Of a stretch of 47,449 nt of DNA, positions 27,713-47,449 are shown piece by piece (position 1 is the stretch's first letter; each line of letters opens with the position of its first letter). Both the position numbers and the translations under genes were made by a program. The DNA comes from a virus (lineage: Duplodnaviria > Heunggongvirae > Uroviricota > Caudoviricetes). The stretch lies in IMG/VR virus record IMGVR_UViG_2585427767_000006. The stretch is one strand, 5' to 3'. The notes below the pieces were generated by a model. It was not told the DNA's origin. It saw only the letters and a program-made list of their open reading frames with translations, and did not search any database.

Positions 27713-29566
27713 TTATGATGATGCCGGTGCATTTATCTCCAGCACCAGACTTTCTATCTCAACGCCATACGCTGCATTTTTGGTAATATCCGTCAGCGTC
27801 AGCGCATTCAGCCCCAGTGTCAGACTGTCTTTTATGACCTGGAATGCCGGGCCAGCCACTCCATTCAGTTTCGGAGTAACCGTGGCACTGCCGGCGGTGA
27901 ACACCAGCTCCAGCGTCTGCCAGTCGTTACTGTAATTCCCGAACTCGCCCAACTTTGTGTTTCCGGCTTTCTTGTGATGCATCAGATTCAGTTTGCCGTC
28001 TGTGGTCTGGGTGAAGAACGACATCAGGAACGGGTTACCAGTCCCGGTCATCGCCACGACGTCAGGTAACGCTACATCGGTATACAGATAAATTCCCAGA
28101 CCGAACTGGTTGTTGGTCAGTGCGCCTGACAGTCGAAACTTACAGCTCAGTCTGCCACCCCGTGTCAGCAGGGAGACTGCGTCATCCACCGGGCGCGTCA
28201 GGGACCAGGCTTTATTGCTCTGCTTGGTGATCTTAAATACACCATCTGACAACTGAATTCCGCCATTCTTAATGCTCCAGCCCTGCGCAGCAGCATCTCC
28301 GGCTGTCGGCAACAGGGAGATTGTGCGTACGGATGCATCTTCAGACGGCCCCGATGGCGTGTCGCCGCCGGGCGAGGGTTTGATTTCCGGTGCCTTACCA
28401 CTAATGAAGGCTAAGGTGCGACCGGCTACGTTCAGAATAGCAGTTGCCATACGATCGGGAATAATGCCACGACGCGCCCATGAGCTGAAATGCGTCGGGC
28501 GATTTGATGATACCCAGTTTTTGTTCGTTCGGGATGCCGAACCGTAATAACCAGACCCGGCAATATCAGGATCTTCTGACGGGTTGTTTGTCGGTGTATT
28601 AACTCCGCTACCATCGGTCATAAAGGGAACAAAATAAATCTGCTGGGATTCTTTACCTTTATATGCACCATATACCACTTCATATTGCGTACCGTGTTCT
28701 TGTTTCCACGCGTATGTCGTGTCGCCACAAATCCAGGGGACTGATGCCGGACTTCCACCGTGACACTGCGCTGCCAGCCCGGCAAGGTCAGCACGGAACT
28801 GCTGTACCATTGCAAGAAATGCTGCTGGCTGCTGGGCGTAACTGGCATTCGTCATATCGAATTCCCCCTGCATCCAGCATATCGCCAGCAAAACGTTTTT
28901 CGGGTTTTTCTGCAATGCTGCCTTCGTGCGGAAAAGCAGATCCTGATATAACGGCTTACCCACTCCCCAGCGAGCCGAATCCTGACTGGCTCCCGTGGAC
29001 TCGCTGAATGTCCCCTCCGTGCCCTGGGTGAATGCCGAACCACCACGACAGCATGGTACCAGCAGGATCCCCGCATTATTAGGGATATACGGAAGCAGTT
29101 TTTTGGCAATATGTAAGCCCTGTCCGACACAGCCGTACTGCCCTTTGCTCAGGTCAGCCCGGGGATGGTTAATCGTACTCATATCCTGAACATCATGCAG
29201 ACAATGGTCAGCAGGAATGATGTCGTTAAATACGCATACTTCACCACCGGGAGTCACTGTGTTACGACGGGCCAGTTGCTTAATGCGCGGATGGGGCGCA
29301 TCGTATGAATCCGGAAGCGGAAGCCCTTCACCGTAAGCCATGGCATTGGATTGCCCGGCCAGTACGATGACGTAGTACCACTCCGGCTCAGTTGCACCAC
29401 TGACGACCACATCACCTTCTGCTGCAATCGCCTGCATCAGGGTATAAGGGGTTATGGCCACCGGACTACCAAACGGCTGCCAGCCCTCTTTCAGTTTATG
29501 TGTCAGCTTTTCCGCAAGATCTGACGGCGACGCCGCCCTGACAACATCATAGTGTTTAAATGCCAT
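27713..29566 (-). CDS. nanS: Prophage 9-O-acetyl-sialate esterase NanS-p (DUF1737 N-domain plus SASA esterase domain)
   Basis: N-terminus MAFKHYDVVRAASPSDLAEKL and the position directly upstream of the holin match the nanS-p gene of Stx-type phages; start at ATG 29566 (SD GGTGGAAAG) rather than ORF-track 29581. Confidence 0.8.
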   Translation of the reverse strand: MAFKHYDVVRAASPSDLAEKLTHKLKEGWQPFGSPVAITPYTLMQAIAAEGDVVVSGATEPEWYYVIVLAGQSNAMAYGEGLPLPDSYDAPHPRIKQLARRNTVTPGGEVCVFNDIIPADHCLHDVQDMSTINHPRADLSKGQYGCVGQGLHIAKKLLPYIPNNAGILLVPCCRGGSAFTQGTEGTFSESTGASQDSARWGVGKPLYQDLLFRTKAALQKNPKNVLLAICWMQGEFDMTNASYAQQPAAFLAMVQQFRADLAGLAAQCHGGSPASVPWICGDTTYAWKQEHGTQYEVVYGAYKGKESQQIYFVPFMTDGSGVNTPTNNPSEDPDIAGSGYYGSASRTNKNWVSSNRPTHFSSWARRGIIPDRMATAILNVAGRTLAFISGKAPEIKPSPGGDTPSGPSEDASVRTISLLPTAGDAAAQGWSIKNGGIQLSDGVFKITKQSNKAWSLTRPVDDAVSLLTRGGRLSCKFRLSGALTNNQFGLGIYLYTDVALPDVVAMTGTGNPFLMSFFTQTTDGKLNLMHHKKAGNTKLGEFGNYSNDWQTLELVFTAGSATVTPKLNGVAGPAFQVIKDSLTLGLNALTLTDITKNAAYGVEIESLVLEINAPASS

Positions 29567-29826
29567 GGTTCTTTCCACCATCTGAAAAATGATTCTTTAA
29601 AATACCTGACATGTAATACAGAAAAAACACAAAACCATACCTTAAATAAAAACCTCATCATCAAGCAGATATGCATGGATAAACTACAAGACGAGATATA
29701 AACCACCCTGCATTTAAATAAACAATAAACAACATCAGAAAAATAATTCTGCTCTATGGTTTACAATCAAAAATATCATTTATACTTTTCAGAACATCAC
29801 CAGCAAGGCATAAACAAGGAAACTAA

Positions 29827-30162: not shown

Positions 30163-30218
30163 GGAGTTTACTCACATCTGACAAAATCAATATAAACAGC
30201 CCCTCCGGAGAGGGGCTG
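30132..30218. terminator. Tandem hairpins (likely bidirectional terminators) after the plus-strand cargo ORF
   Basis: 12-bp perfect stem TCCTTATGGACT/AGTCCATAAGGA (30132..30165, spanning the stop codon) and 9-bp stem CAGCCCCTC/GAGGGGCTG with 4-nt loop (30197..30218). Confidence 0.5.
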
Positions 30219-30609
30219 GAGAGTGGCGCTATGTGCCATTGCATGGTGCCGGGTGCCTCCCGGTGAATTCAGTACCAGCACCTGAATCCGCGATTATCCC
30301 ATATACCTACTCGCTGATTGCCCCTCCGCACAGGGGGATTCACCATGCCAGTTTCTTTTAACAAACTCCCCGCAAACCAGACAACAATCAACCGCCTGAA
30401 TTGTGAAGTATTTAAAAATTTCTCCCGCTAACTGATACCCGGCTAACAGTCTGGCGTTTTCTTTTTCAGCAACGGGAAAGCAACAACCACCACACCCGCC
30501 ACCAGCACACCGTCAGCCAGCACTGACATTATCCGGCTGCTGCAATGCCATTCACAAAAACAGTAAGCAATCACTTTTTACCGTAACCGGTGATAATCCA
30601 GATATGTAT

Positions 30610-31073: not shown

Positions 31074-31150
31074 TGGCGCGCTGTACTGGATTCGAACCAG
31101 TGACCGATTGCTTAGAAGGCAATTGCTCTGTCCGGCTGAGCTAACAACGC
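31074..31150 (-). tRNA. tRNA-Arg (anticodon UCU)
   Basis: Minus-strand 77-nt sequence GCGTTGTTAGCTCAGCCGGACAGAGCAATTGCCTTCTAAGCAATCGGTCACTGGTTCGAATCCAGTACAGCGCGCCA folds as a cloverleaf with anticodon loop CUUCUAA and T-loop TTCGAAT. Confidence 0.9.
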
Positions 31151-31250
31151 TGAATACCGATAATGGACCGCCATCGGGGACCCGCCCCCGCACCAACAAC
31201 CCTGTTATCGTGTCGTCTGCTCTTCCTGATAAGCTAATGGCGGTTTGTGA

Positions 31251-31326
31251 TGGTGGCCCTTGCTGGATTTGAACCAGCGACCTGGCGATTATGAGTCGCT
31301 CGCTCTCACCACTGAGCTAAAGGGCC
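31251..31326 (-). tRNA. tRNA-Ile2 (anticodon CAU, ileX/ileZ-like; could alternatively be Met)
   Basis: Minus-strand 76-nt sequence GGCCCTTTAGCTCAGTGGTGAGAGCGAGCGACTCATAATCGCCAGGTCGCTGGTTCAAATCCAGCAAGGGCCACCA; 7-bp acceptor stem, anticodon CAU, very close to E. coli ileX. Confidence 0.85.
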
Positions 31327-34116: not shown

Positions 34117-35214
34117 TTATGGTATTAATCCAGCTGTTCTTGCTTTATTAATATAATTTTTACAGTGGTTAGCCAAATACTCTGCAAACTTGCATGGAAG
34201 TGCATTTCCTATTATGACGCATACTTTATCCATCAAAGCTGTATCAAACACATAGTTATCAGGAAAAGTCTGTAGTCTAGCAGCTTCTCGAACAGAAATA
34301 GTACGCGTATCCTCAGGATGTCCATATCGCCCACGGCTTAAAGTTGTGCACCCACCTGTAATCGTTGGCGATACGTCATCCCAAAGCATACGACCATAAA
34401 CATTACTAAATCCTTTATAGTCGCCTTTATGGCAATCTGGACGGAGTTCTTCGGGAATACACTCCCAAGACATCCCTGGAACAGCCGCTTGTAACCGCTT
34501 TATATTGATCTCAGACAAATCCCTAACAATATGCCAACTCGACAATGGAAACTTCCCTTGCTTCTTAGCCTGTGAAAGAGTTAAGGGTTTTGGCATATCT
34601 CCAATAGCTTCTTTAACAGTTACCCATTTGGGTTTCTCTCTTCCATCCTTAGAGTGTGATCCATCAGGCAATGGGATGGCAAATCCTTTTCCTGCCAACA
34701 GAACAAGCCTTTTTCTGAACTGTGGTACACCAAAGTCAGCTACTTGCAAAACTCCATAATTAACTATGTAACCAAGTTTTTTCAATCTCTCAATTACTGG
34801 CGAAAGAAGATGATTTCCCCGGGAAGCTAATCCAGGAACATTTTCCATCATGATTGCTGATGGATTGGTTTCTTCAACCAACCGTAACATCTCGTTAATC
34901 AATAAATTACGAGGGTCCTCCCTTTTATACTTGGCAGTGAGACTAGTAAATCCTTGACATGGCGGGCACGCAGATAAAAGATCTAAATGTTGCTCAGGGA
35001 TAAGATTTAGGATATCACTCCCCTTTACAAACCGAATATCTTGAACAAAGAGTTTTGTCTCACGATGATTTGCTTGGAAAGTAGCGGCGGCATGTGCGTC
35101 CAGTTCAACGGCAGCTTTGACATCAAACCCGGCCATTTTTAGTCCCATGGTTAGTCCCCCACCACCGCTAAATAGGTCAACTGCATTCAAACTGGTCACT
35201 GTTTTCTCACTCAT
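34117..35214 (-). CDS. DNA cytosine-5 methyltransferase (Dcm-type)
   Basis: Motif I DLFSGGGG, catalytic motif IV PCQGF, motif VI ENV, motif VIII QFRKR; ATG overlaps the upstream gene's stop by 8 nt. Confidence 0.9.
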   Translation of the reverse strand: MSEKTVTSLNAVDLFSGGGGLTMGLKMAGFDVKAAVELDAHAAATFQANHRETKLFVQDIRFVKGSDILNLIPEQHLDLLSACPPCQGFTSLTAKYKREDPRNLLINEMLRLVEETNPSAIMMENVPGLASRGNHLLSPVIERLKKLGYIVNYGVLQVADFGVPQFRKRLVLLAGKGFAIPLPDGSHSKDGREKPKWVTVKEAIGDMPKPLTLSQAKKQGKFPLSSWHIVRDLSEINIKRLQAAVPGMSWECIPEELRPDCHKGDYKGFSNVYGRMLWDDVSPTITGGCTTLSRGRYGHPEDTRTISVREAARLQTFPDNYVFDTALMDKVCVIIGNALPCKFAEYLANHCKNYINKARTAGLIP

Positions 35215-37318
35215 TATTTCCCAACTTCAACTGTTCTGCCTCATCCAAGAATTCTTGGTGAGTTTGAGTTGTCCTCAGCAAGAACCCTGCCCAATCAACG
35301 GGTGTTAGGCGTTTTTCTTCGATGTATGCAGTATAAGCTTTACGACGTGCCCCACTCAAGCGCTCCCCATCACTTACCAGCGTAACGTGAAAATCAGATG
35401 CTATTGATTTAAAATCATTATGTCTCTCATCGTTCAAAAACTCCTCGAATGTTTCGAAGTAATTAATAATACGATCCATTTCATCATTGGAAATATAATG
35501 ATGTGGCTTTTTTATTTCAATTATTTGTAATTTTCCATCCTGACTAAACAATACAAAGTCTGGTCTTTTATTTTTTTTATCAAAATCTATAAGAAATATC
35601 TCCTCACCAGTTTTCTTTTTATAAAATTTTTGAAATTCCCTTTTAAGCGTGGACAACGTTTTATTTGCTGTAACTGGGACCCATTGAGGGTTAACTAGCC
35701 ACGGAGCGGATGCAATTAGATCTTGTAACTCATCTTCTGCTGTATCCTTTGCGTCTTTTAAAGACTCGAGACGCTCAATAATCTGAAGACGCTTTTTGAC
35801 CTTTTGACCAAAACTAACGGTTTCAGCTAGTTGAGCCGTTGCTAAAATATCGTTGAGAACATTGAGCGGTGTATCCGCTTTACTGGAAGCTTCTATTAAC
35901 TTCTCATCTAAGGATTGTAATGGTGCTAACATAATACTTAACTGCACTAAATTCTCGAGTGCATCAGGATCATGTAATTCATCACCTCGTAAAGATTTAC
36001 CCAACAACTTGGCTATTTTTTTAGCCTGTGCTCGCATATCCTTTTGACCGGCTCCAGGGTATGCTTGCTCGACCTTATCCTCCACTTGCGCTAATTCGAA
36101 GAATTGATTCATCATATTATTTCTAAGGGGGTCGCGAGTTATTTTACCCACAAGTAAAATAACTTCTTGCCCCCAATTCTGAAATTGCGTTCCTAAATCA
36201 TCAGACCATAGAATATCCCTTCTATCAGTTTGGATAAGATCTTCTTTTTCGTCTAACCAGTCAGCATGCAACTCACCTACCAAATATGAACGTATAGAGT
36301 GCTCTCCAGTAAAACCAGCTTTTCTATTAAAAACTGCTGTTTGCGCAGCAAACTTACCTCGGCAATAAATTCTAACACCTGCCATTAACTCGTCCTTATA
36401 AGGCTCTTTCGCGTATGCAATCCAACCTAATATCGGGTAAGCTTTCCCTTCATGTTCAAAACCGGCCTTAACAATTGATGAACGCGTGCCGTCAGGATTA
36501 AAAGCCGTATAATCACTTAAATCCGTACAAGAATCTGTCGCAATACTTCCACTCATGGAACGAAATTCAATTTTAGAGTTAGGCATAACAGGAACAGTAA
36601 ACTCTCCGACCTCAACTTCATAGTCAGGATTAGACTTTGTTTTCGAAGTATCAATCAGTTTAATATTCCAGTTTTTACTCTTCACTCCAAAACGTTGTGA
36701 AAGCTGCCGAGATAAATCTTTTATTTCGCTAATTTTTCTATATTCAAAATCACTTAATATTATTTTAGTATAGGTCCTGTCACTTAGTGTGCCGTCTAAA
36801 TCCCCAGTTTCCGGTTTATAAGACACTGCAGTATCATCCATTATTTTTTCTTTATCTAGCTGAATATGAGCAACCTCATACCCTTCCTTTCCATCACGAC
36901 TGATTTTTTCCCCACCGGCACTTATAATCTCGACCCTTTTACAAACACCAAAAGGTGCTAATTTCCCAACGCCTTTCCGTCCCATGACTTTGCGGTGAAA
37001 CACCTTCGAGGTTTCACCTCTTTTTGGATCCTTACGTCTTTCTTTGCCAACAACCAAATAAAAGTTCTGTAGTTCATCAGGCGCCATTCCGACGCCATTA
37101 TCTTCTACTTCTATTGTGACATTTTTTGACCTGACAACACCATCCTGTCTAACAGCCAAGTATTGGCCCATAGGTGCTTTTATAGTGACATTAGTCGCAT
37201 CTGCATCGTAACTGTTAGATACTAATTCGGCTATAACAGCATAAGCCCTGTCATATAATTTCACACCTAATTTATCTACTGTCATCCTTGATATCTGCAT
37301 TTCATATTGACGCGCCAT
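35207..37318 (-). CDS. GHKL (MORC/MutL-like) ATPase fused to a C-terminal PD-(D/E)xK-type nuclease domain; putative restriction/defence nuclease
   Basis: N-box ELVSNSYDADA, G1 DNGVGM, G2 GRKGVGKLAPFG in the first 130 aa; C-terminal IDFD...PDFVLF...IIEIKK nuclease-like signature; SD AAGGA upstream. Confidence 0.7.
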   Translation of the reverse strand: MARQYEMQISRMTVDKLGVKLYDRAYAVIAELVSNSYDADATNVTIKAPMGQYLAVRQDGVVRSKNVTIEVEDNGVGMAPDELQNFYLVVGKERRKDPKRGETSKVFHRKVMGRKGVGKLAPFGVCKRVEIISAGGEKISRDGKEGYEVAHIQLDKEKIMDDTAVSYKPETGDLDGTLSDRTYTKIILSDFEYRKISEIKDLSRQLSQRFGVKSKNWNIKLIDTSKTKSNPDYEVEVGEFTVPVMPNSKIEFRSMSGSIATDSCTDLSDYTAFNPDGTRSSIVKAGFEHEGKAYPILGWIAYAKEPYKDELMAGVRIYCRGKFAAQTAVFNRKAGFTGEHSIRSYLVGELHADWLDEKEDLIQTDRRDILWSDDLGTQFQNWGQEVILLVGKITRDPLRNNMMNQFFELAQVEDKVEQAYPGAGQKDMRAQAKKIAKLLGKSLRGDELHDPDALENLVQLSIMLAPLQSLDEKLIEASSKADTPLNVLNDILATAQLAETVSFGQKVKKRLQIIERLESLKDAKDTAEDELQDLIASAPWLVNPQWVPVTANKTLSTLKREFQKFYKKKTGEEIFLIDFDKKNKRPDFVLFSQDGKLQIIEIKKPHHYISNDEMDRIINYFETFEEFLNDERHNDFKSIASDFHVTLVSDGERLSGARRKAYTAYIEEKRLTPVDWAGFLLRTTQTHQEFLDEAEQLKLGNNE

Positions 37319-37894
37319 TTAAATATCCTTCTAAAAGAGTATTTTTTGCTCAAAAAGGGGAAGTTTATGTTTGACTAACATAGCAAAAAAACTTTCATCT
37401 TCAAGAGGTTCACACCAAAAGAATTTACCTGGTTCACATAACCAGCTGGATTAGTGTTGAGTTTTGGGTAAACCTGAGGATTGAGAAACCAGTACTGATA
37501 AATGGGTATCCGCTGTTTTCGTCCCTCTCCTGAGCTACCGTGTATTGAAATGGCATCGACACTATTACATGGTAGGAGGTTGTATGTATGGTTTAGATAT
37601 TTTGCATCTTTCACAGACACTTTTTACCTTTGCCATATCCTTCCACATTGTTTCTCCGGAAATCACTAACGGTTTGGCATTTGCATAACCATTATCAGCC
37701 ATAGCTTCTTGCCGTTAACTTCGGTTGCACCTGATTGTTGCTCACCTTCAGGCAATGATGGGTTATATACACGGACTGAGCTCACTGCAGTAACAACCTT
37801 CCCAGTCAACTTACCTATGCTTTCAACCATCATCGTAGCGGCATACTTCCGAATTGCTATTATTTCAATTCTGCACCGTTTGCTCAATGTAACG

Positions 37895-38305
37895 CTACCT
37901 AAAACGTCGCCGATAGAACGCCAGCACGCGCTGCATAACTTCGCTCTTCCGGCACTCGCTACAGATTATGTTCTGACGCCTGTCATAACGACGTATTTCT
38001 CCATCAGGTAATGACCAGATAAGGTCCGGATCAACCGCAGATGGTTTCTTCAGCTTTGCCCTTGAGAGCTTTTTACGGGCATTTTGCCAGTCCTTACGCG
38101 CCTGTTCAGGCGGGAATAACCCGTAACCAGAGTTGTATACATCGCCACTGGCAACCAGCTCTCTGGCCAGAACGCTCATCAGATATCTTGTTGCCCCAGT
38201 TCTAGCTTCCAGTTGTCGTAACGTCTCGCGCCCACTCTGGCGTACGAGTTCAAGAACCTGCCCTTTAATTTTTTCCCGCTCTTCTTGTGTAAAAACTTTT
38301 GCCAC
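37895..38305 (-). CDS. Hypothetical protein (136 aa) downstream of the replication initiator
   Basis: GTG start with strong SD AGGAGGG 5 nt upstream; basic C-terminus with CSEC pair; function unknown. Confidence 0.5.
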   Translation of the reverse strand: MAKVFTQEEREKIKGQVLELVRQSGRETLRQLEARTGATRYLMSVLARELVASGDVYNSGYGLFPPEQARKDWQNARKKLSRAKLKKPSAVDPDLIWSLPDGEIRRYDRRQNIICSECRKSEVMQRVLAFYRRRFR

Positions 38306-38345
38306 AAGCCCTCCTGAAAATTACCTCATGACCAGAAATACACAC

Positions 38346-39416
38346 TTACCCCCTGAAGCCCGGTGGAATTTCGGTATCCGGTTCAGAAATATGATTCACA
38401 CAACGCTGGTTGTTCGTGCCGCTTACCGGGAGCAACCAGGGGTTCTCAAAATTCCGGTCCGGTCCAAAAAACGTCGTCGCTCGCTGAACAAATTCCGTTC
38501 CCGTTTTCCCGGTAGCCGCCAGGTATCTTGCGTAACGCCTCACGCCATCCAGCATGGCCTCTGGTGGCACCCCCTCGCGTAATCTGGCCTTCCAGGCACT
38601 GAAAGCGGATTTCTTCGGGTTTGCTCCGGCACGCAACGGGTACTCCCGCCAGACCTGTTCGAACACATCCGGATAATCCACTCGTCCCACAGACTGCCCG
38701 GTGTTTTCCGGGACTACCCGATCGGCTTCCCGCTGAATGGCGGAATCGGCTTCGGGCTGCTGCAGTTGGTGTGATTGCTCCGGCCTTGCGGTCATCACCT
38801 GCTGCACAGCGCCCGAATCGGCTTTCAGCGCATACGCTGAATCGGCTTCCGGTGTCGTGCCTGCTGGCTGACCAAGATTGACGGTCTGAACATCCCCTGC
38901 CTGGTTCGTGGCGTTTTTTACGCCATGGACCATAGTGTTTTGATCTTCTTGATCTGTATCTTTATCTGTATCTTTATCTGTCGTGACTCGTCGTGACATG
39001 TGCGTGACATTTCGTGACGCGCCGTGACAATCGCCATTTTGTTCCCGCTTTCTTTCCCTCTCTCGCTGCGCCCTCTTGCGCTCTGCAGGAGATTTTGCGG
39101 TTTGCGAAATATTGCCGTTGTCCTCTTTAAGCACCTGGCGTTTTTCCCATCCAGTGATTAAATCACCATCAAGTCCCCGCCCCTGCATCGTCTGCAAAAT
39201 TGAATCAATTACCTCTTCTGTCACGTCGAGCGCACTTGCCAAATCTTCTGTCGTGACATCAATGTGACCTCGCGTGACATTTCGTGACGCGCTCACCAGG
39301 AGGTGGATATACACTGCCATCACTGTTGCAATTGGCTGCCCTGACACCCTGGCAATTGTTCGCCACTTAGGGTCATTTGGCATGTCATGCCATAATCTGA
39401 GCCAGGCGTTAGCCAT
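38346..39416 (-). CDS. Replication initiation protein (O-like) with internal origin iterons
   Basis: Position after cro/YdaT-like genes; two clusters of phased CGTGAC repeats inside the ORF; start at ATG 39416 with SD GAGGTGA (ORF-track GTG at 39422). Confidence 0.6.
   Translation of the reverse strand: MANAWLRLWHDMPNDPKWRTIARVSGQPIATVMAVYIHLLVSASRNVTRGHIDVTTEDLASALDVTEEVIDSILQTMQGRGLDGDLITGWEKRQVLKEDNGNISQTAKSPAERKRAQRERERKREQNGDCHGASRNVTHMSRRVTTDKDTDKDTDQEDQNTMVHGVKNATNQAGDVQTVNLGQPAGTTPEADSAYALKADSGAVQQVMTARPEQSHQLQQPEADSAIQREADRVVPENTGQSVGRVDYPDVFEQVWREYPLRAGANPKKSAFSAWKARLREGVPPEAMLDGVRRYARYLAATGKTGTEFVQRATTFFGPDRNFENPWLLPVSGTNNQRCVNHISEPDTEIPPGFRG
38982..39288. repeat. Putative replication origin: two iteron clusters (CGTGAC repeats with ~10.5-bp phasing)
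   Basis: CGTGAC at 38982, 38992, 39003, 39013, 39023 and (C/T)GTGAC at 39252, 39263, 39273, 39283; the 19-mer CGTGACATTTCGTGACGCG occurs in both clusters; AT-rich tandem repeat TCTGTATCTTTA x2 adjacent. Confidence 0.6.
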
Positions 39417-39487
39417 ACTCACCTCTTTTGATACCGAATCTTTTTACTCACAAATTGCCGGAAGTGATCCGGTATGAATATTGCGAG

Positions 39488-39913
39488 TCAATGCACAGCC
39501 ACAATATTTCCTGCAGGGCCACCACGATTCATCTGGTTGAAACCAGCGATCGCCACTGCGACAAAATCATCAGCGTCTCTCACCAGTCGTTCCCGCGTCT
39601 CCACTAGTTCCCGAAAATAGGCTGAGCTATGACTGCGCATTCGGGCCACCAGCAGAGGTGGCATTGCTTTTTCGATAGCTGGTAACAACGCCTGAATTTT
39701 TTTAACCGCATCAGGGGTGTCTTTCTCCACCCAGCGGAAAATTTTCTGAGTATTGCGAGCCAGGGCTTCCGGATGGCTGTCGTCATACAGTTCTGGGAAC
39801 GTCATACCCAACTCAAAATAAGCCTGGGTTATTCCAGCTGCTGGAACTTTTTCGCCATCAGGACGCGCCCAGGCATTCATCGCCATGCGGATGTGTTCAT
39901 GCTTGATTTTCAT
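39488..39913 (-). CDS. YdaT-like protein (CII-position regulator of Rac/Qin-type prophages)
   Basis: N-terminus MKIKHEHIRMAMNAW as recalled for YdaT; ATG overlaps the stop of the cro-like gene. Confidence 0.65.
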   Translation of the reverse strand: MKIKHEHIRMAMNAWARPDGEKVPAAGITQAYFELGMTFPELYDDSHPEALARNTQKIFRWVEKDTPDAVKKIQALLPAIEKAMPPLLVARMRSHSSAYFRELVETRERLVRDADDFVAVAIAGFNQMNRGGPAGNIVAVH

Positions 39914-40164
39914 GAATCAACTCCCATCAGCTTTTTCGTAGTAGTTTTATTCCTGCCAATAGTTAAAATTGCATCGGCAGAAAATAATCCGTTTGATGCA
40001 AGAGCGATTTTTTCAGCGTAATTTGTTTCGCCGGTATATTCTGTGCGAGGCAATTTTCCGTTATCCATCCATTTATAGATTGCTCTTTGGCTGACACCAC
40101 AAACGTCGGCCACAACAGCAACGCGAACAGTTTTGATTACATCTTCAAGTGTTTTCTGGTTCAT
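39910..40164 (-). CDS. Cro-like HTH regulator (DicC/YdaS position)
   Basis: 84-aa product from ATG 40164 with HTH VADVCGVSQRAIYKW; divergent from the repressor gene across an operator-rich 79-bp spacer. Confidence 0.7.
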   Translation of the reverse strand: MNQKTLEDVIKTVRVAVVADVCGVSQRAIYKWMDNGKLPRTEYTGETNYAEKIALASNGLFSADAILTIGRNKTTTKKLMGVDS

Positions 40165-40243
40165 ATCACCCTCACAATGTGAACTTTTAGTACATGCTAT
40201 AACAGAACTGACAGTACATTCAAGAGCGAATATCATTGAACTT
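40165..40243. promoter_or_regulatory. Right operator / divergent promoter region (OR-like)
   Basis: Three direct ~15-bp operator-like repeats GAACT-N4-(A)GTACAT / GGTTCAT at ~40181, ~40205, ~40237 between the divergent cro-like and repressor genes. Confidence 0.55.
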
Positions 40244-40663
40244 ATGGTTCATGAAGATAAAGCGCGTAAAGAGTTCGCCAGTAGGCTTGCGCTAGCCTGT
40301 GAAAACGCTGGTTATGAACAACATGGAAGGCAGGCAGAAATTGCCCGTCGAATGAAATTAACACCAAAAGCGGTTAGCAAATGGTTTAATGGCGAAACAA
40401 TTCCTCGCCGGGAGAAATTAAGGGAATTAGCAACACTAATAGGAACAACACCAACCTATCTTTTGGGAGAGGATACAGAAGAAAGTGGACAGGTACGTTT
40501 CTATCAGGAGTTAAATCCAAGACAAAAAATCATCATTGACCTTCTGGACGAGCTCCCTGACAGTGAGACAGATGAACTTTTAAAAACTCTTGAAGAGAAA
40601 AAACAGAAGTACAATGCAATTTACGAAGAGTTAGCACGAAAGAAAAAACAAAAAGCCTCTTAA
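40244..40663 (+). CDS. Prophage repressor, DicA-like (XRE-family HTH, no peptidase domain)
   Basis: 139-aa product from ATG 40244; HTH region RQAEIARRMKLTPKAVSKWFNGE; acidic/helical C-terminus resembling DicA; divergent from cro-like gene. Confidence 0.75.
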   Translation: MVHEDKARKEFASRLALACENAGYEQHGRQAEIARRMKLTPKAVSKWFNGETIPRREKLRELATLIGTTPTYLLGEDTEESGQVRFYQELNPRQKIIIDLLDELPDSETDELLKTLEEKKQKYNAIYEELARKKKQKAS

Positions 40664-40734
40664 ACCAGCATAAATCCGGTAGCGCCTTCCTCCGGGTTTG
40701 TGCTTCACTTTATCCCATCTCATTTTTTTACACA

Positions 40735-40785
40735 CAAAATGTACTAAAAGTACTTTACAACAATGAACGAAAAGTACATTATATA
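40735..40785 (+). promoter_or_regulatory. Left operator / early-left promoter (OL/pL-like)
   Basis: ATGTACTAAAAGTAC (inverted copy of the OR repeat) and GAACGAAAAGTACATT (direct copy) overlap a TTTACA-N17-CATTAT promoter reading toward the ydfA-like/dicB genes. Confidence 0.45.
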
Positions 40786-40959
40786 CCTGCCACCACCCCG
40801 CCCCACAGAATGCAGGGCAATACTTCGAGTTACCAGGCAGTGGTCAGGGGTTAAGTAGCCAGCCCGAGGCGTAAGAACATGACGGCAGGGTTCAACTTTA
40901 ATAACTATGCAGCAGGTTTTTGTTCCGCTACCCCGGCGTTAAGGGGAAATGAGGTCAGC

Positions 40960-41984: not shown

Positions 41985-42037
41985 TTTCTGGTGACTTTTG
42001 GCGGTATCAGTTTTACTCCGTGACTGCTCTGCCGCCC
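41985..42037 (+). ncRNA. dicF: DicF small RNA homologue (53 nt), with intrinsic terminator U-tract to ~42042
   Basis: Sequence TTTCTGGTGACTTTTGGCGGTATCAGTTTTACTCCGTGACTGCTCTGCCGCCC followed by TTTTT matches the E. coli Qin DicF sRNA as I recall it (one mismatch). Confidence 0.75.
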
Positions 42038-42325
42038 TTTTTAAAGTGAATTTTGTGATGCGGTGAATGCGGCTGAGCGCACGCGGAACAGTTAAAACCA
42101 AAAACAGTGTTATGGGTGGATTCTCTGTATCCGGCGTTAATTGTTAACTGGTTAACGTCACCTGGAGGCACCAGGCACCGCATCAACAAAGTTCACTTCG
42201 GTGATGAAAGGTAAGAGAAAATGTTGAATGTAGCTATTGAAAACCAGAACGGGTGGAATTATAGTGCACCTGCACCTCATAAAACGGGTGCCGGGCGTGG
42301 AAACCCGAAATCATTCACGGCGCAT

Positions 42326-42348
42326 AACCGCGCTCAGGCGGTTTTTTT
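42326..42348 (+). terminator. Intrinsic terminator between DicF and the Rha gene
   Basis: Stem AACCGC/GCGGTT, loop GCTCAG, followed by TTTTTTT. Confidence 0.6.
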
Positions 42349-42517
42349 ATGCGTTAAGCACAGCCACATTCGCATTATGGTGGGGCGTGCAGGGCAGCCG
42401 CAAGGCTGGCCGGGTTCCGTGATGACCGGTATTTCCACCCCTGTACGTCTCACCACCCTTATGGTCGTGGAAAACCTCGGTGGTGAGTTAATCAAATTCA
42501 TCGCGGAGGCTGCCATC

Positions 42518-43075
42518 ATGGCTACTATCCTTACCCTTTCTCACCCTGACGTAACCATCGAAAATGGTCGCGCTGTCACTACGTCTGTTGCGATCGCCGA
42601 GTTCTTTGGCAAACGCCACGAACGAGTGTTGGATAAAATTCGCAATCTGGACTGTTCAGCAAAATTCACTGAGCACAATTTTGTGTCGAGCGAATACACC
42701 GACTCAACCGGGCGCAAACTCCCAATGTACCAAATCACCAAAAACGGCTTCGTTTTCCTGGTGATGGGGTTCACAGGTAAAAAAGCCGCAACTTTCAAAG
42801 AAGCCTACATCGCTGAGTTCGATCGCATGGAGGAAGAACTGCGCCAGAATAACGCCCCGTCTCCCGACAAAATGATTCACGGGGACGGACGCACCCTGGT
42901 TATCCGTCTCGACGAACACGGCAATATCAAATTCACTGAAACCGTTCCTGACGGCGCAATGGTCTGCACCCTGGATACCTTCCGGTTTTATCTGGAGAAA
43001 CAAGGATGGACTCTTGTAAACCGGAGCGCAATTAAAAATATGACTGTGGAGCAATTGCTAAAAATTCATTGTTGA
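42518..43075 (+). CDS. Rha-family phage regulatory protein
   Basis: Rha signatures VAIAEFFGKRHERVLDKIRNL and MYQITKNGFVFLVMGFTGKKAATFKEAYIAEFDRME; start at ATG 42518 with SD GGAGG; the upstream part of ORF-track 42221..43075 contains a terminator. Confidence 0.75.
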   Translation: MATILTLSHPDVTIENGRAVTTSVAIAEFFGKRHERVLDKIRNLDCSAKFTEHNFVSSEYTDSTGRKLPMYQITKNGFVFLVMGFTGKKAATFKEAYIAEFDRMEEELRQNNAPSPDKMIHGDGRTLVIRLDEHGNIKFTETVPDGAMVCTLDTFRFYLEKQGWTLVNRSAIKNMTVEQLLKIHC

Positions 43076-46092: not shown

Positions 46093-46341
46093 ATGGCAAG
46101 ACTTATTCTGCTCACTGAGTGGGCAAAAGAGGAATTCAGTGAACCGGTCCCTACTCCGAGTACGTTAAGTAAATACGCTAAAGCCGGAATGATATTTCCT
46201 CTCCCCAAAAAAGTTGGAAGACGCTGGCGAGTGGATCCGCAAGCTCGCTTTGTCGGAATGGTAAACAAGCCGGAGGTGATCGCCACAGATCACCCTGCTT
46301 TGAAGAGGATACTGGAAGATGGCGCGCCCGCGAAAATATAA
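46093..46341 (+). CDS. xis: Excisionase (Xis-like DNA-binding protein)
   Basis: 82-aa protein MARLILLTEWAKEEFSE... directly upstream of and overlapping the integrase gene. Confidence 0.7.
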   Translation: MARLILLTEWAKEEFSEPVPTPSTLSKYAKAGMIFPLPKKVGRRWRVDPQARFVGMVNKPEVIATDHPALKRILEDGAPAKI

Positions 46342-47449
46342 AACCGATGTTCCGGGATTATCTCCGTATTTTGACAAAAGAAATAACAAAGTTTACTGGC
46401 GTTACAGGCATCCCATAACAGGCAAAAATCACGGTCTCGGCAGTATTGACCAGAAACTGGCAGAAACTATTGCAGCAGAAGCGAACAGCCGTCTTGCCCG
46501 GCAGCAAATGGAACAAATGCTCAGTCTGCAGGAGAAAATTATTAGTGATACCGGCGGTTCATCAACCGTTACCATTTTTCTGAATAATTACAGAAAAATT
46601 CAACAGGAAAGATATGAAAACGGCGAGATCAAACTCAACACGCTGAAACAGAAAGCGGCCCCTCTCAGGGTATTTGATGAACGTTTTGGCACCAGACCGT
46701 TAGATGCCATAACCGTAAAAGATGTGGTATCAGTACTGGAAGAGTACAAGGCCAGAGGACATAACAGAATGGGACAAATTTTCAGGAAAGTACTGATCGA
46801 TGTTTTCCGGGAAGCTCAGCAAACGGGCGATGTCCCGCCAGGCTTTAACCCTGCAGAATCGGCAAAAAAACCGCAGGTGCGGATATCAAGACAGCGACTG
46901 ACTTTTGATGAGTGGATGATGATTTATAACGCAGCGGAAAAGGATGGTTACTTTTTACAGCGCGGTATGCTGCTGGCACTGATGACAGGCCAGCGCCTTT
47001 CAGATATTTGCAAAATGCAATTTTCGGATATCCGGGATGGTTATCTTCATGTCGAACAGCAAAAAACAGGAACCCGGATTGCCATCCCTCTGGCTCTGCG
47101 TTGCGATAAATTAAATCTCACCCTGGATGATGTGGTGTCATCCTGCCGCGATTGCGTTCTTAGTCCGTGGCTATTGCACCACCATCACGCGAAAGGGACA
47201 GCTAAGCGCGGCGGGATGGTTAAGCCAGCAACATTAACCGTTGCATTTAAAAAAGCCCGGGATTCTGTGGATTACAACTGGCGTGCTAATGGCACCCCTC
47301 CCTCTTTCCATGAGCAGAGATCTTTATCAGAGCGATTGTTCAGAGAGCAGGGGGTTGATACCAAAATTTTGCTAGGCCATTCGAATCAAAAAATGACCGA
47401 TATTTACAACGACGCACGCGGTAAGGAATGGAAAAAACTGGTCATTTGA
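46319..47449 (+). CDS. int: Tyrosine site-specific integrase
   Basis: 376-aa protein; C-terminal catalytic region with R...HxxR...Y (LLGHSNQKMTDIYNDARG); stop codon is the last triplet of the window. Confidence 0.9.
   Translation: MARPRKYKTDVPGLSPYFDKRNNKVYWRYRHPITGKNHGLGSIDQKLAETIAAEANSRLARQQMEQMLSLQEKIISDTGGSSTVTIFLNNYRKIQQERYENGEIKLNTLKQKAAPLRVFDERFGTRPLDAITVKDVVSVLEEYKARGHNRMGQIFRKVLIDVFREAQQTGDVPPGFNPAESAKKPQVRISRQRLTFDEWMMIYNAAEKDGYFLQRGMLLALMTGQRLSDICKMQFSDIRDGYLHVEQQKTGTRIAIPLALRCDKLNLTLDDVVSSCRDCVLSPWLLHHHHAKGTAKRGGMVKPATLTVAFKKARDSVDYNWRANGTPPSFHEQRSLSERLFREQGVDTKILLGHSNQKMTDIYNDARGKEWKKLVI

What the first reader, a model, noticed from the sequence alone, without database searches (positions are those of the whole stretch)
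38940..39290. Two clusters of helically phased CGTGAC iterons inside the initiator gene (putative prophage origin)
Five CGTGAC repeats at ~10-11 bp spacing (38982..39028) and four more (39252..39288) lie within the coding sequence of the O-like initiator, with an AT-rich tandem repeat beside the first cluster. The 19-mer CGTGACATTTCGTGACGCG occurs in both clusters. This mirrors lambda ori inside O, but with two separated iteron blocks.
Basis: seen in the sequence. Interest (0 to 1): 0.45.

Follow-up and report, generated by a model that had tools for sequence, protein, structure and literature searches.

The report
Two-block replication origin inside initiator gene
Two arrays of a 6-bp repeat, one copy per DNA turn, sit inside a prophage replication-initiator gene next to an easily melted AT-rich tract, and comparison across many bacteria shows the DNA itself is under selection, so this is very probably an uncharacterised, two-part phage replication origin.

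Summary
CGTGAC occurs five times at 38982-39028 (spacing 10/11/10/10). It occurs three more times, plus one TGTGAC, at 39252-39288, with an inverted copy at 39220. That is 9 exact hits in 312 bp against 0.14 expected. A 12-nt AT-rich tandem repeat at 38947-38981 abuts the first block and is the least stable duplex of the region.

All of this lies in a 356-aa gene (38346-39416, minus strand). The gene belongs to PHROG 3729 "replication initiation protein" and shows no detectable similarity to lambda O or SPP1 gp38.

In 43 typed loci (the window plus homologs from Escherichia to Pseudomonas, Bordetella and Acidobacteria), 41 keep both blocks at the same gene positions. Codons whose third base lies in a repeat core are identical in 98% of sequences, against 45% for other conserved codons. 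Distant homologs carry a different core (GTAACG or CGAACGC) in both blocks together. The cores are read in all three frames and lie in a surface loop and a disordered linker.

Best reading: an initiator-bound origin of the lambda/SPP1 "ori-in-gene" kind, with an extra upstream iteron array of unknown sign. No binding or replication experiment exists. I rate it a new variant of a known kind, of moderate interest.

The parts
38346..39416 (-). Replication-initiator gene (356 aa from the ATG at 39416; the mechanical ORF starts at the GTG at 39422)
   Evidence: ORF list. phrog_3729 'replication initiation protein', E = 7.5e-257 over its full length. No Pfam family above threshold. 96-99% identical genes in isolated phages Tritos, Evi and vB_Eco*.
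39132..39416 (-). Coding region of the N-terminal winged-helix domain (aa 1-95), the presumed iteron-binding domain
   Evidence: AlphaFold2 model: pLDDT above 90, helices 2-11, 16-25, 29-45, 56-63 and 67-77, then a beta wing. Only weak, non-significant Foldseek matches, mostly to winged-helix DNA-binding proteins.
39252..39288 (+). N-block: four direct iteron cores (CGTGAC at 39252, 39273, 39283; TGTGAC at 39263), spaced 11/10/10. It encodes aa 43-55 (ASRNVTRGHIDVT), the end of helix 3 and the loop before the HTH.
   Evidence: Present at gene nt 129/139/149/160 in most GTCAC-type loci. Synonymous sites frozen.
39220..39225 (-). Single inverted iteron core (GTCACG on the + strand), 33 nt downstream (gene sense) of the N-block
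   Evidence: I9. Present at the equivalent position (gene nt 193, 181, 187 or 214) in most GTCAC-type loci. It becomes GTTAC in the GTAAC-type locus L030. Val is GTG here but GTC in all direct copies.
39036..39098 (-). Coding region of the conserved basic helix (aa 107-127, AKSPAERKRAQRERERKRE), a candidate specificity element
   Evidence: Helix 110-127 in the model. Invariant K/R positions. Its sequence differs between iteron classes: ERKREQRER, RV..[YF]RE, ERAK.WRE. Any role in recognition is inferred.
38982..39028 (+). Linker block: five direct iteron cores (CGTGAC at 38982, 38992, 39003, 39013, 39023), spaced 10/11/10/10. It encodes aa 130-145 in the disordered inter-domain linker.
   Evidence: The cores are read in all three reading frames. 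3-7 copies at the same place in typed homologs.
38938..38981 (.). AT-rich, strand-skewed tandem tract (12-nt unit x2.9; encodes DKDTDKDTD), the candidate DNA-unwinding element
   Evidence: TRF. GC 0.35. Least stable 40-mer of 37800-40800 and of the gene: -43.4 kcal/mol against a gene mean of -57.5, sd 3.8. Sense strand 74% purine. Homologs carry (GATAAA)n/(GATACA)n or (AGAGGA)n after the last iteron, with GC 0.17-0.38 in most, even in genes of 60-69% GC.
39002..39022 (+). Exact 21-mer GCGTGACATTTCGTGACGCGC, repeated at 39272-39292 (same reading frame, encoding ASRNVT in both places)
   Evidence: family D1, spacing 260.
38349..38420 (-). C-terminal 24 codons resembling the C-terminus of E. coli DnaT, a possible host-primosome or helicase recruitment tail
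   Evidence: Matches PDB 6aep, 2ru8 and 9zbt_D (DnaT residues 159-179) at weak E-values of 0.02-0.07. In the printed 6aep alignment most residues are identical, including the terminal IPPGFRG. NF002770 DnaT, E = 0.0016. Function inferred.

Best explanation
The region is the replication origin of a lambdoid (Rac/DicA-immunity type) E. coli prophage, built into the gene of its own initiator.

Shown by sequence analysis:
- A 6-bp core, GTCACG on the coding strand, is repeated once per helical turn in two direct arrays. Four copies lie in the loop-coding part of the N-terminal winged-helix domain and five in the inter-domain linker, with one inverted copy between them.
- The linker array is followed, in the direction of transcription, by the least stable, purine-skewed AT-rich tract of the region.
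- Both arrays and the tract are under DNA-level purifying selection across distant bacteria.
- The core sequence has switched together in both arrays several times.

Inferred steps:
1. After induction, the early rightward-type transcript makes the initiator.
2. Its N-terminal winged-helix domain, perhaps with the adjacent basic helix, binds each core. Because the cores are about 10.5 bp apart, the protomers line up on one face of the DNA and oligomerise.
3. The linker array with its bound oligomer stresses and melts the adjacent (GATAAA/GATACA)n tract.
4. The C-terminal domain brings in the replicative helicase. In this phage there is no phage loader gene next to the initiator, so recruitment may run through a DnaT-like C-terminal tail and host DnaB-DnaC. 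In relatives it would run through the P-like, DnaC-like or DnaB-like gene that follows.
5. The N-block, 260 bp upstream, is a second initiator-binding array acting in cis on the same complex, probably by looping. Whether it strengthens initiation or restrains it (handcuff or titration) cannot be decided from sequence.
For: - Clustering and phasing.
- Gene identity: phrog_3729, E = 7.5e-257. Homologs are followed by Phage_lambda_P, IstB/DnaC-like or DnaB genes.
- DNA-level rather than protein-level repeat: the cores are read in three frames. Ten codons whose third base lies in a core of the window are identical in 98% of 20 other-species sequences, against 45% for 62 other codons with a conserved amino acid (Mann-Whitney p = 8.8e-7). 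The GAACGC class replicates this, 92% against 33%, p = 1.3e-5.
- Val-Thr is always GTC-ACG in direct copies and GTG-ACN in the inverted copy.
- Positional conservation: 41 of 43 typed loci have both blocks.
- Joint switching of the core to GTAACG or CGAACGC in both blocks. This includes close relatives L029 (GTCAC) and L030 (GTAAC), where the change is synonymous.
- Both blocks fall in permissive protein segments, a loop and a disordered linker. The loop changes length by 7 aa, or 21 bp, which equals two repeat units.
- The AT-rich tract is the least stable duplex, and low GC after the last iteron is kept even in genes of 60-69% GC.
- Upstream and downstream neighbours differ among loci that share the same iterons, so the N-domain is the only constant partner.
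- Mosaic breakpoints in E. coli fall at the AT-rich tract, as expected at a module junction.
- The same layout (iterons in the linker-coding part, then an AT-rich tract downstream) is found in lambda, at O aa 117-145 of 299, and in SPP1 oriL inside gene 38.
Against: - There is no experimental evidence: no binding, melting or origin-activity data for any member, and no paper found on this family.
- The iterons are physically inside the N-domain gene, so their co-inheritance with it is unavoidable and cannot alone prove that it binds them.
- Two typed relatives (L040, L055) and the weakly typed ones lack the N-block, so it is not essential to the family.
- Within E. coli the cores are not significantly depleted of polymorphism: 2 of 28 variable sites against 3.6 expected, p = 0.29.
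- The sequences compared are related, and phage modules move horizontally, so the counts are not independent events.
- No phage helicase loader is adjacent here, so the recruitment step is the weakest inference.
Confidence: 0.7

Rival explanations
1. Only the linker block plus the AT-rich tract is the origin. The N-block is a separate regulatory operator: initiator bound inside its own coding region blocks or slows RNA polymerase coming from the early promoter. That would give autoregulation, or control of transcriptional activation of the origin.
For: The N-block lies 225-260 bp from the AT-rich tract and is absent in some relatives that keep the linker block (L040, L055). It is the first array met by transcription from the cro side.
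Against: The cores, orientation and phasing are identical to those of the linker block, the two blocks share an exact 21-mer, and the core has switched together in both. This argues for one binding protein and probably one complex. Nothing distinguishes a roadblock from a looped origin complex in sequence.
Confidence: 0.15
2. The repeats are a consequence of a repeated or conserved peptide motif (SRNVT / RVTT) needed by the protein. The DNA periodicity is a by-product.
For: The peptide S-x-N-V-T-R-G-H-x-x-V-T is invariant among GTCAC-type homologs, and R49-G50 is kept in all types.
Against: - The spacing of 10-11 bp puts the core in all three frames: TGT CAC GGC, GCG TCA CGA, AAT GTC ACG.
- Synonymous positions inside cores are frozen while other conserved codons are near saturation.
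- L029 and L030 differ by the synonymous change GTC ACG to GTA ACG in many copies.
- Both segments are a loop and a disordered linker that tolerate 7-aa insertions.
Confidence: 0.02
3. The arrays are binding sites for another protein and serve another process, such as a partition centromere, a packaging or recombination site, or an operator for a neighbouring regulator (YdaT/cII-like, Cro-like, DUF977).
For: Two blocks of about five direct repeats at 10-11 bp recall plasmid centromeres such as R1 parC (from memory). Mosaic junctions map to the AT-rich tract.
Against: - No ParA, ParM or ParR genes are nearby, and the element integrates (integrase at 46319-47449; the near-identical prophage in H12 lies next to ompW).
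- Neighbours upstream and downstream vary among loci with identical iterons. YdaT and DUF977 were absent from the ten upstream and ten downstream neighbours scanned in the other genera.
- The iteron class tracks changes in the initiator's own basic helix.
Confidence: 0.05
4. The sites are real iterons, but in this prophage they are an inactive relic of a cryptic element.
For: Many E. coli Rac/Qin-like prophages are defective. The near-identical prophage in H12 has frameshifted portal and protease genes.
Against: The gene is intact here. The same module (96-99% identity) is present in phages deposited as isolates (Tritos, Evi, vB_EcoS-689R5 and others). It occurs in 1647 of 5426 complete E. coli genomes.
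Confidence: 0.05

Closest known systems
Phage lambda ori inside gene O (O initiator, P loader)
   Same: - The origin lies inside the initiator gene, in the part coding the inter-domain region. Lambda's iterons are at O aa 117-145 of 299; here the linker block is at aa 130-145 of 356.
- The iterons are followed downstream by an unwinding-prone AT-rich tract with strand skew.
- The gene sits after cro and cII-like genes in the early operon and is followed by a Ren-like gene (PMC6022878).
   Different: - No sequence similarity to O (no Pfam hit; hhalign probability 0.1%).
[quoted passage not shown] Here there are 6-bp asymmetric cores, one per helical turn, in two arrays 260 bp apart plus one inverted copy.
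- There is no P gene in this window.
Bacillus phage SPP1 oriL inside gene 38 (replisome organizer gp38)
   Same: Direct repeats plus an AT-rich unwinding element lie within the organizer's own gene and are bound by its product. The protein is a two-domain organizer that hands over to a loader or helicase. NCBI names many homologs 'phage replisome organizer' (PMC6316719).
   Different: - hhalign finds no similarity to gp38, and TIGR01714 scores 16 bits against a cut-off of 49.8.
- SPP1's second set of gp38 sites is a separate origin (oriR) about 13 kb away, not a second block within the same gene.
- SPP1 encodes gp39 and gp40 downstream.
Origins of phage-inducible chromosomal islands (PICI/SaPI) and iteron plasmids with a second iteron set (P1 incC/incA, F, R6K; phage P4 ori/crr)
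   Same: More than one iteron set is recognised by one initiator. In plasmids the extra set controls initiation by titration or handcuffing. In P4 a second cis site (crr) is required. The plasmid and P4 points are from memory. [quoted passage not shown]
   Different: - Here the two sets do not flank the AT-rich tract. The order is N-block, 225 bp of coding DNA, linker block, AT tract.
- Both sets are inside the initiator ORF.
- The repeat period is one helical turn rather than about two.
- There is no Rep_3/RepA-type or primase-helicase initiator.

Membership tests
Lambda-type origin (ori inside O) | Iterons inside the initiator ORF, in the inter-domain coding part, with an AT-rich unwinding tract immediately downstream | tested here: met
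   Linker block 38982-39028 (aa 130-145, disordered in the model) and AT tract 38938-38981, the least stable 40-mer. Lambda layout.
Lambda-type origin (ori inside O) | Initiator homologous to lambda O (Pfam Phage_rep_O) | tested here: not met
   No such Pfam hit at E <= 0.01. hhalign of the family profile against lambda O: probability 0.1%, E = 0.46.
Lambda-type origin (ori inside O) | Iterons are about 18-bp dyad-symmetric sites in a single array of four | tested here: not met
   6-bp asymmetric cores at 10-11 bp, in two arrays of 5 and 4 plus one inverted copy. The lambda definition is in PMC6022878.
Lambda-type origin (ori inside O) | Initiator binds the iterons and the fragment supports replication | not testable with these tools
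   Needs EMSA or footprinting and a plasmid replication assay.
Phage replisome organizer (SPP1 gp38; TIGR01714 phage_rep_org_N) | N-terminal domain scores above the family cut-off or aligns to gp38 | tested here: not met
   TIGR01714: 16.2 bits against a cut-off of 49.8. hhalign against gp38: probability 0.08%. This is a single-sequence template, so a very remote relationship is not excluded.
Phage replisome organizer (SPP1 gp38; TIGR01714 phage_rep_org_N) | Origin repeats plus an AT-rich element within the organizer's own gene | tested here: met
   SPP1 description in PMC6316719.
Phage replisome organizer (SPP1 gp38; TIGR01714 phage_rep_org_N) | Followed by helicase-loader and/or helicase genes | tested here: inconclusive
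   Not in this window: the next genes are a DUF977/Ren-like gene and then an R-M-like pair. Yes in relatives: P-like in L007, DnaB in L019, DnaC-like in L022, L030 and L045.
PHROG 3729 'replication initiation protein' | Full-length profile match | tested here: met
   E = 7.5e-257, residues 3-358 against profile positions 1-356 of 356.
Iteron-plasmid origin with control iterons (Rep_3/RepA type) | Rep_3-type initiator and about 17-22-bp iterons spaced about two helical turns | tested here: not met
   No Rep_3 hit. The period is 10-11 bp. The definition of the family is from memory.
ParR/parC-type centromere | Adjacent partition NTPase and adaptor genes | tested here: not met
   The neighbours are cro-like, YdaT/cII-like, DUF977 and R-M genes, and an integrase gene is present at 46319-47449. 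The parC geometry is from memory.

The most novel reading that the evidence does not exclude
The N-block may be a dedicated cis-control module written into a permissive loop of the initiator's own DNA-binding domain. By looping to the linker array, or by blocking transcription, it would set when and how often the origin fires. In this reading the iteron sequence dictates two stretches of the protein, and the whole system (the cores of both arrays, the inverted copy and the initiator's basic helix) has changed specificity together at least three times. That would give a natural set of orthogonal initiator/origin pairs.
Probability: 0.3. Interest if true: 0.65.

Novelty: new variant of a known kind. 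Interest (0 to 1): 0.5.

Why it matters
This replication module is very common. At least 80% of the 1.2-kb region is present in 1647 of 5426 complete E. coli genomes, and relatives occur in Pseudomonas, Bordetella, Aeromonas and other phages. Yet neither the initiator domain (no Pfam family) nor its origin appears to have been studied.

If confirmed, it would:
- give a defined origin for a large class of enterobacterial prophages;
- provide a clear case where cis-acting DNA sites shape two segments of the protein that probably binds them;
- show a bipartite iteron layout that could reveal how phage origins are enhanced or throttled;
- supply at least three naturally orthogonal iteron/initiator classes, useful for specificity studies or vector design.

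The DnaT-like tail also suggests a route by which a phage initiator without its own loader taps the host helicase-loading machinery.

Tried and rejected
- Within-population test: 83 sequences (80 IMG/VR copies plus the window, L001 and L005) gave 50 distinct, near-identical E. coli gene sequences. Two of 28 variable sites in nt 1-470 fall in cores, against 3.6 expected (p = 0.29). There is too little diversity, so the result is inconclusive.
- Foldseek of the AlphaFold model against the PDB: no significant match (best E = 0.25). The many winged-helix DNA-binding proteins among the top hits merely fit a wHTH fold.
- hhalign against lambda O and SPP1 gp38: nothing.
- Literature searches for this family's origin, for CGTGAC/GTCACG iterons and for two-cluster iterons in phages: nothing relevant beyond lambda, SPP1 and PICI. 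The Stx-phage 'Eru' replication-region paper does not mention iterons. Weigel and Seitz 2006 is not in the library.
- RNA explanations: no Rfam family in 38300-39500. The strand does not fold better than shuffles, z = -0.6.
- Promoter and terminator scan: one 9/12 promoter-like match inside the linker block (39004-39031, +) and a hairpin at 38902-38932. Both are at chance frequency. The hairpin was not found in homologs under a stricter search, which also missed the window's own copy.
- My first synonymous-site test defined 'inside' columns from the motif's presence in the majority of sequences and was circular. I replaced it with a test that defines positions from the window alone.
- Protein-repeat, centromere and other-binder readings were rejected; see the rival explanations.
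Full report
**1. What is in the sequence**

Reading 38400-40200 and searching for CGTGAC confirm five exact copies on the + strand at 38982, 38992, 39003, 39013 and 39023, spaced 10, 11, 10, 10. A second group has exact copies at 39252, 39273 and 39283. Its fourth member, at 39263, is TGTGAC, and the spacing is 11, 10, 10.

Tandem Repeats Finder reports a period-10 array at 38980-39029. Directly beside it is a period-12 array, TCTTTATCTGTA x2.9, at 38947-38981, where GC falls to 0.35. The shared 19-mer is in fact an exact 21-mer, GCGTGACATTTCGTGACGCGC, at 39002-39022 and 39272-39292.

Nine of the window's 30 exact hits fall in one 312-bp span. The expectation is 0.139, Poisson P = 4.7e-14, and no other span of that size holds more than one.

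**2. The gene and its setting**

All sites lie in ORF 38346-39422 on the minus strand. The likely start is the ATG at 39416, preceded by GAGGTG, and homologs begin MANxW.

Family assignments:
- Pfam gives no family above threshold.
- PHROGs gives phrog_3729 'replication initiation protein' over the full length, E = 7.5e-257. Separate PHROGs cover the N- and C-terminal halves.
- NCBIfam gives only a sub-threshold N-terminal 'replisome organizer' match and a short match to the end of DnaT.

The neighbours are a DicA-like repressor (40133-40663, +), a cro-like gene, a YdaT/cII-like gene, the initiator, and a DUF977/Ren-like gene. This is the early-right operon of a Rac/Qin-type lambdoid prophage. 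The window also carries Q, lysis, head and tail genes, an exonuclease and an integrase; a near-identical prophage elsewhere (H12) is integrated next to ompW.

The 1.2-kb region is 96-99% identical in deposited phages Tritos, Evi and vB_EcoS-689R5, among others. At least 80% of it is present in 1647 of 5426 complete E. coli genomes. Partial matches break at query positions 642-660, which correspond to window 38941-38959, the AT-rich tract. N- and C-terminal halves are therefore exchanged there.

**3. Structure**

An AlphaFold2 model built on 79 homologs gives the following:
- A confident N-terminal domain, aa 1-95, pLDDT above 90. It has helices 2-11, 16-25, 29-45, 56-63 and 67-77, followed by a beta wing.
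- A basic helix at aa 110-127.
- A disordered stretch from about aa 128 to 248.
- A helical C-terminal domain.

Foldseek finds only weak, non-significant matches, mostly to winged-helix DNA-binding proteins.

The N-block codes aa 43-55, the end of helix 3 and the loop before the helix-turn-helix. The linker block and the AT-rich repeat code aa 130-155 in the disordered linker. Both arrays therefore lie in parts of the protein that should tolerate sequence imposed from the DNA side. In relatives the loop does differ in length by 7 aa, or 21 bp, which is two repeat units (L004, L006, L026, L029, L030).

**4. Comparative evidence**

A search with the first 159 aa found 705 relatives. A scan of one genome per species returned 52 loci, spanning Escherichia, Serratia, Rahnella, Pseudomonas, Bordetella, Acidovorax, Stenotrophomonas, Chromobacterium and Gilvimarinus, with a few loci assigned to Acidobacteria and Actinobacteria MAGs.

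*Position.* In most of the 26 GTCAC-type sequences (gene GC 42-69%), the core sits at the same gene positions: nt 129, 139, 149 and 160; inverted at 193; and about 389, 399, 409 (418).

*Core switching.* More distant relatives have no GTCAC. They carry another core at the same two places:
- CGAACGC at about 131/141/151 and about 362/372 (L033, L036, L038, L041, L042, L049 and others).
- GTAACG in L026, L030, L035, L037, L044 and L045.

Of 43 sequences with a clear type, 41 have both blocks. L040 and L055 have only the linker block.

The close relatives L029 (GTCAC) and L030 (GTAAC) differ by the synonymous change GTC ACG to GTA ACG in many copies. In L030 the inverted copy is GTTAC.

*AT-rich tract.* The last linker iteron is followed in most loci by (GATAAA)n/(GATACA)n or (AGAGGA)n. 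GC there is 0.17-0.38 in most loci, and the tract is usually purine-rich.

**5. Selection acts on the DNA**

The 10-11-bp period puts the core in all three reading frames: TGT CAC GGC, GCG TCA CGA, AAT GTC ACG.

I defined core positions from the window alone and scored 20 other-species sequences. The ten codons whose third base lies in a core are identical in 98% of sequences. The figure for 62 other codons with a conserved amino acid is 45% (Mann-Whitney p = 8.8e-7). The GAACGC class gives 92% against 33%, p = 1.3e-5.

Codon by codon, A43 is GCG in 19 of 21, S44 is TCA in 20 of 21, V47 is GTC in 21 of 21, T48 is ACG in 21 of 21, G50 is GGT in 21 of 21 and H51 is CAC in 20 of 20. R49, whose third base lies outside the core, uses four codons. 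Val-Thr is GTC-ACG in every direct copy and GTG-ACN in the inverted copy. D147-K148 in the AT tract are GAT-AAA in 19 of 19 and 17 of 18.

Caveats:
- The sequences are related and the module moves horizontally.
- One of the two peptide patterns used to find loci covers the N-block, although only as a degenerate back-translation.
- Within E. coli, polymorphism is too sparse to test.

**6. What binds the sites**

Neighbours differ among loci that share the same iterons. Upstream genes include assorted regulators, an HNH endonuclease, a Ref-like nuclease and a methyltransferase. Downstream genes include lambda-P-like, DnaB-like and DnaC/IstB-like genes. The N-domain is therefore the only constant partner.

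Outside the iteron-coded segments, the basic helix tracks the iteron class. It reads ERKREQRERER with GTCAC, RV..[YF]RE with most GTAAC, and ERAK.WRE with GAACGC. A 9-aa segment before it is present only in the GTCAC group and in L026/L030.

This is suggestive, not proof.

**7. Mechanism**

*Shown:*
- Two phased direct arrays, plus an inverted copy, under DNA-level constraint.
- An adjacent least-stable, purine-skewed tract: -43.4 kcal/mol per 40-mer against a gene mean of -57.5, sd 3.8, within the least stable 0.6% of the window.
- An initiator-family gene with helicase or loader partners in relatives.

*Inferred:*
- The initiator binds one core per helical turn on one face of the DNA and oligomerises.
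- The linker-array complex melts the AT tract.
- The C-terminal domain recruits the helicase.
- The N-block acts in cis on the same complex.

Here no loader gene follows the initiator. The last 24 residues resemble the end of E. coli DnaT, most of them identical including the terminal IPPGFRG, though the match E-values are weak at 0.02-0.07. Recent structures suggest that DnaT marks the helicase-loading site in replication restart and may recruit DnaB/DnaC (PMC13377028). A host-primosome route is therefore possible but untested.

**8. Comparison with known systems**

*Lambda.* Four iterons, each an 18-bp dyad bound by two O proteins, followed by a 39-bp High-AT-rich region, all inside O (PMC6022878). 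They lie at O aa 117-145 of 299. The layout and polarity are the same here. The protein is unrelated, and the sites are short asymmetric cores in two arrays.

[quoted passage not shown] A second gp38-binding origin lies about 13 kb away (PMC6316719). There is no detectable similarity to gp38.

*PICI.* These origins have two iteron sets flanking the AT-rich region (PMC6092414). Here both sets lie on one side of it.

*From memory only.* Plasmid control iterons, P4 ori/crr and R1 parC are functional or geometric analogies.

**9. Verdict**

It is a new variant of a known kind. The ori-in-initiator principle is classical. Three things appear undescribed: the bipartite intragenic iteron layout, its deep conservation, and the joint switching among at least three core classes in an uncharacterised but very common initiator family. 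Interest is moderate (0.5). Confidence that this is an initiator-bound origin is about 0.7. The role of the N-block is open.

Noticed in passing
window 34117-37318 (-): A type II restriction-modification-like pair lies a few hundred bp downstream of the replication module. It consists of a C5 cytosine methylase (34117-35214; PF00145, 6e-58) and a 703-aa HATPase_c_3 protein (35207-37318) with an REase_II-like N-part and an HSDR_N/SduA-like C-part. The two genes overlap by 8 nt. In relatives this slot holds other cargo.
   Followed up: partly
window 38349-38420 (-): The last 24 aa of the initiator (..QRCVNHISEPDTEIPPGFRG) resemble the C-terminus of E. coli DnaT, most of them identical including the terminal IPPGFRG (weak E-values, 0.02-0.07). 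The same tail ends several homologs whose middle domains differ. There is no phage helicase loader next to the gene.
   Followed up: partly
window 38721-38852; locus L003: A 36-nt direct repeat with 96-bp spacing lies in the C-terminal half (repeat family D2, EADSA.. motif). The E. coli EC32 allele is exactly 96 bp (32 aa) shorter, as expected from recombination between the two copies. In strain GCU-H1 (L002) the DKDT-coding repeat is expanded by 36 bp.
   Followed up: partly
window 38902-38932: An imperfect palindrome (13-nt arms, 5-nt loop) lies just beyond the AT-rich tract in the gene-sense direction. It was not found in homologs under a stricter hairpin search that also missed this copy, and such matches occur at chance frequency in the scan.
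   Followed up: partly
loci L047 and L054 (Serratia, Pantoea): The same N-domain is fused to a different C-part carrying a motif that looks GIY-YIG-like by eye (not scanned against a family library). The linker DNA carries another repeat, ACTACGTA, and there is no N-block. This is possibly a fourth iteron class.
   Followed up: no
window 39036-39098 (-) and homologs: The basic helix after the winged-helix domain changes with iteron class. The position that is Q117 in the window is Y or F in GTAAC-type proteins and W in GAACGC-type proteins. This makes it a candidate specificity determinant.
   Followed up: partly
window 41986-42460 (+), 30188-30377 (-), 31077-31326 (-): Rfam matches: DicF (41986-42037), isrK (42272-42348) and C4 antisense RNA (42373-42460), the last two overlapping the start of an Ash+Rha fusion ORF (42221-43075). 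Also STnc100 (30188-30377) and two tRNA genes (31077-31150, 31254-31326) upstream of the Q antiterminator gene.
   Followed up: no
window 27713-29581 (-): A 622-aa protein with DUF1737, a SASA carbohydrate-esterase domain and DUF6645 sits between the lysis and Q regions. It is possibly a surface-polysaccharide-modifying moron.
   Followed up: no
window 38942-38954: Two GATC (Dam) sites 9 bp apart lie inside the AT-rich tract. Only one other GATC occurs in the gene, at 38720. The pair was seen in the window only and was not checked in relatives.
   Followed up: no
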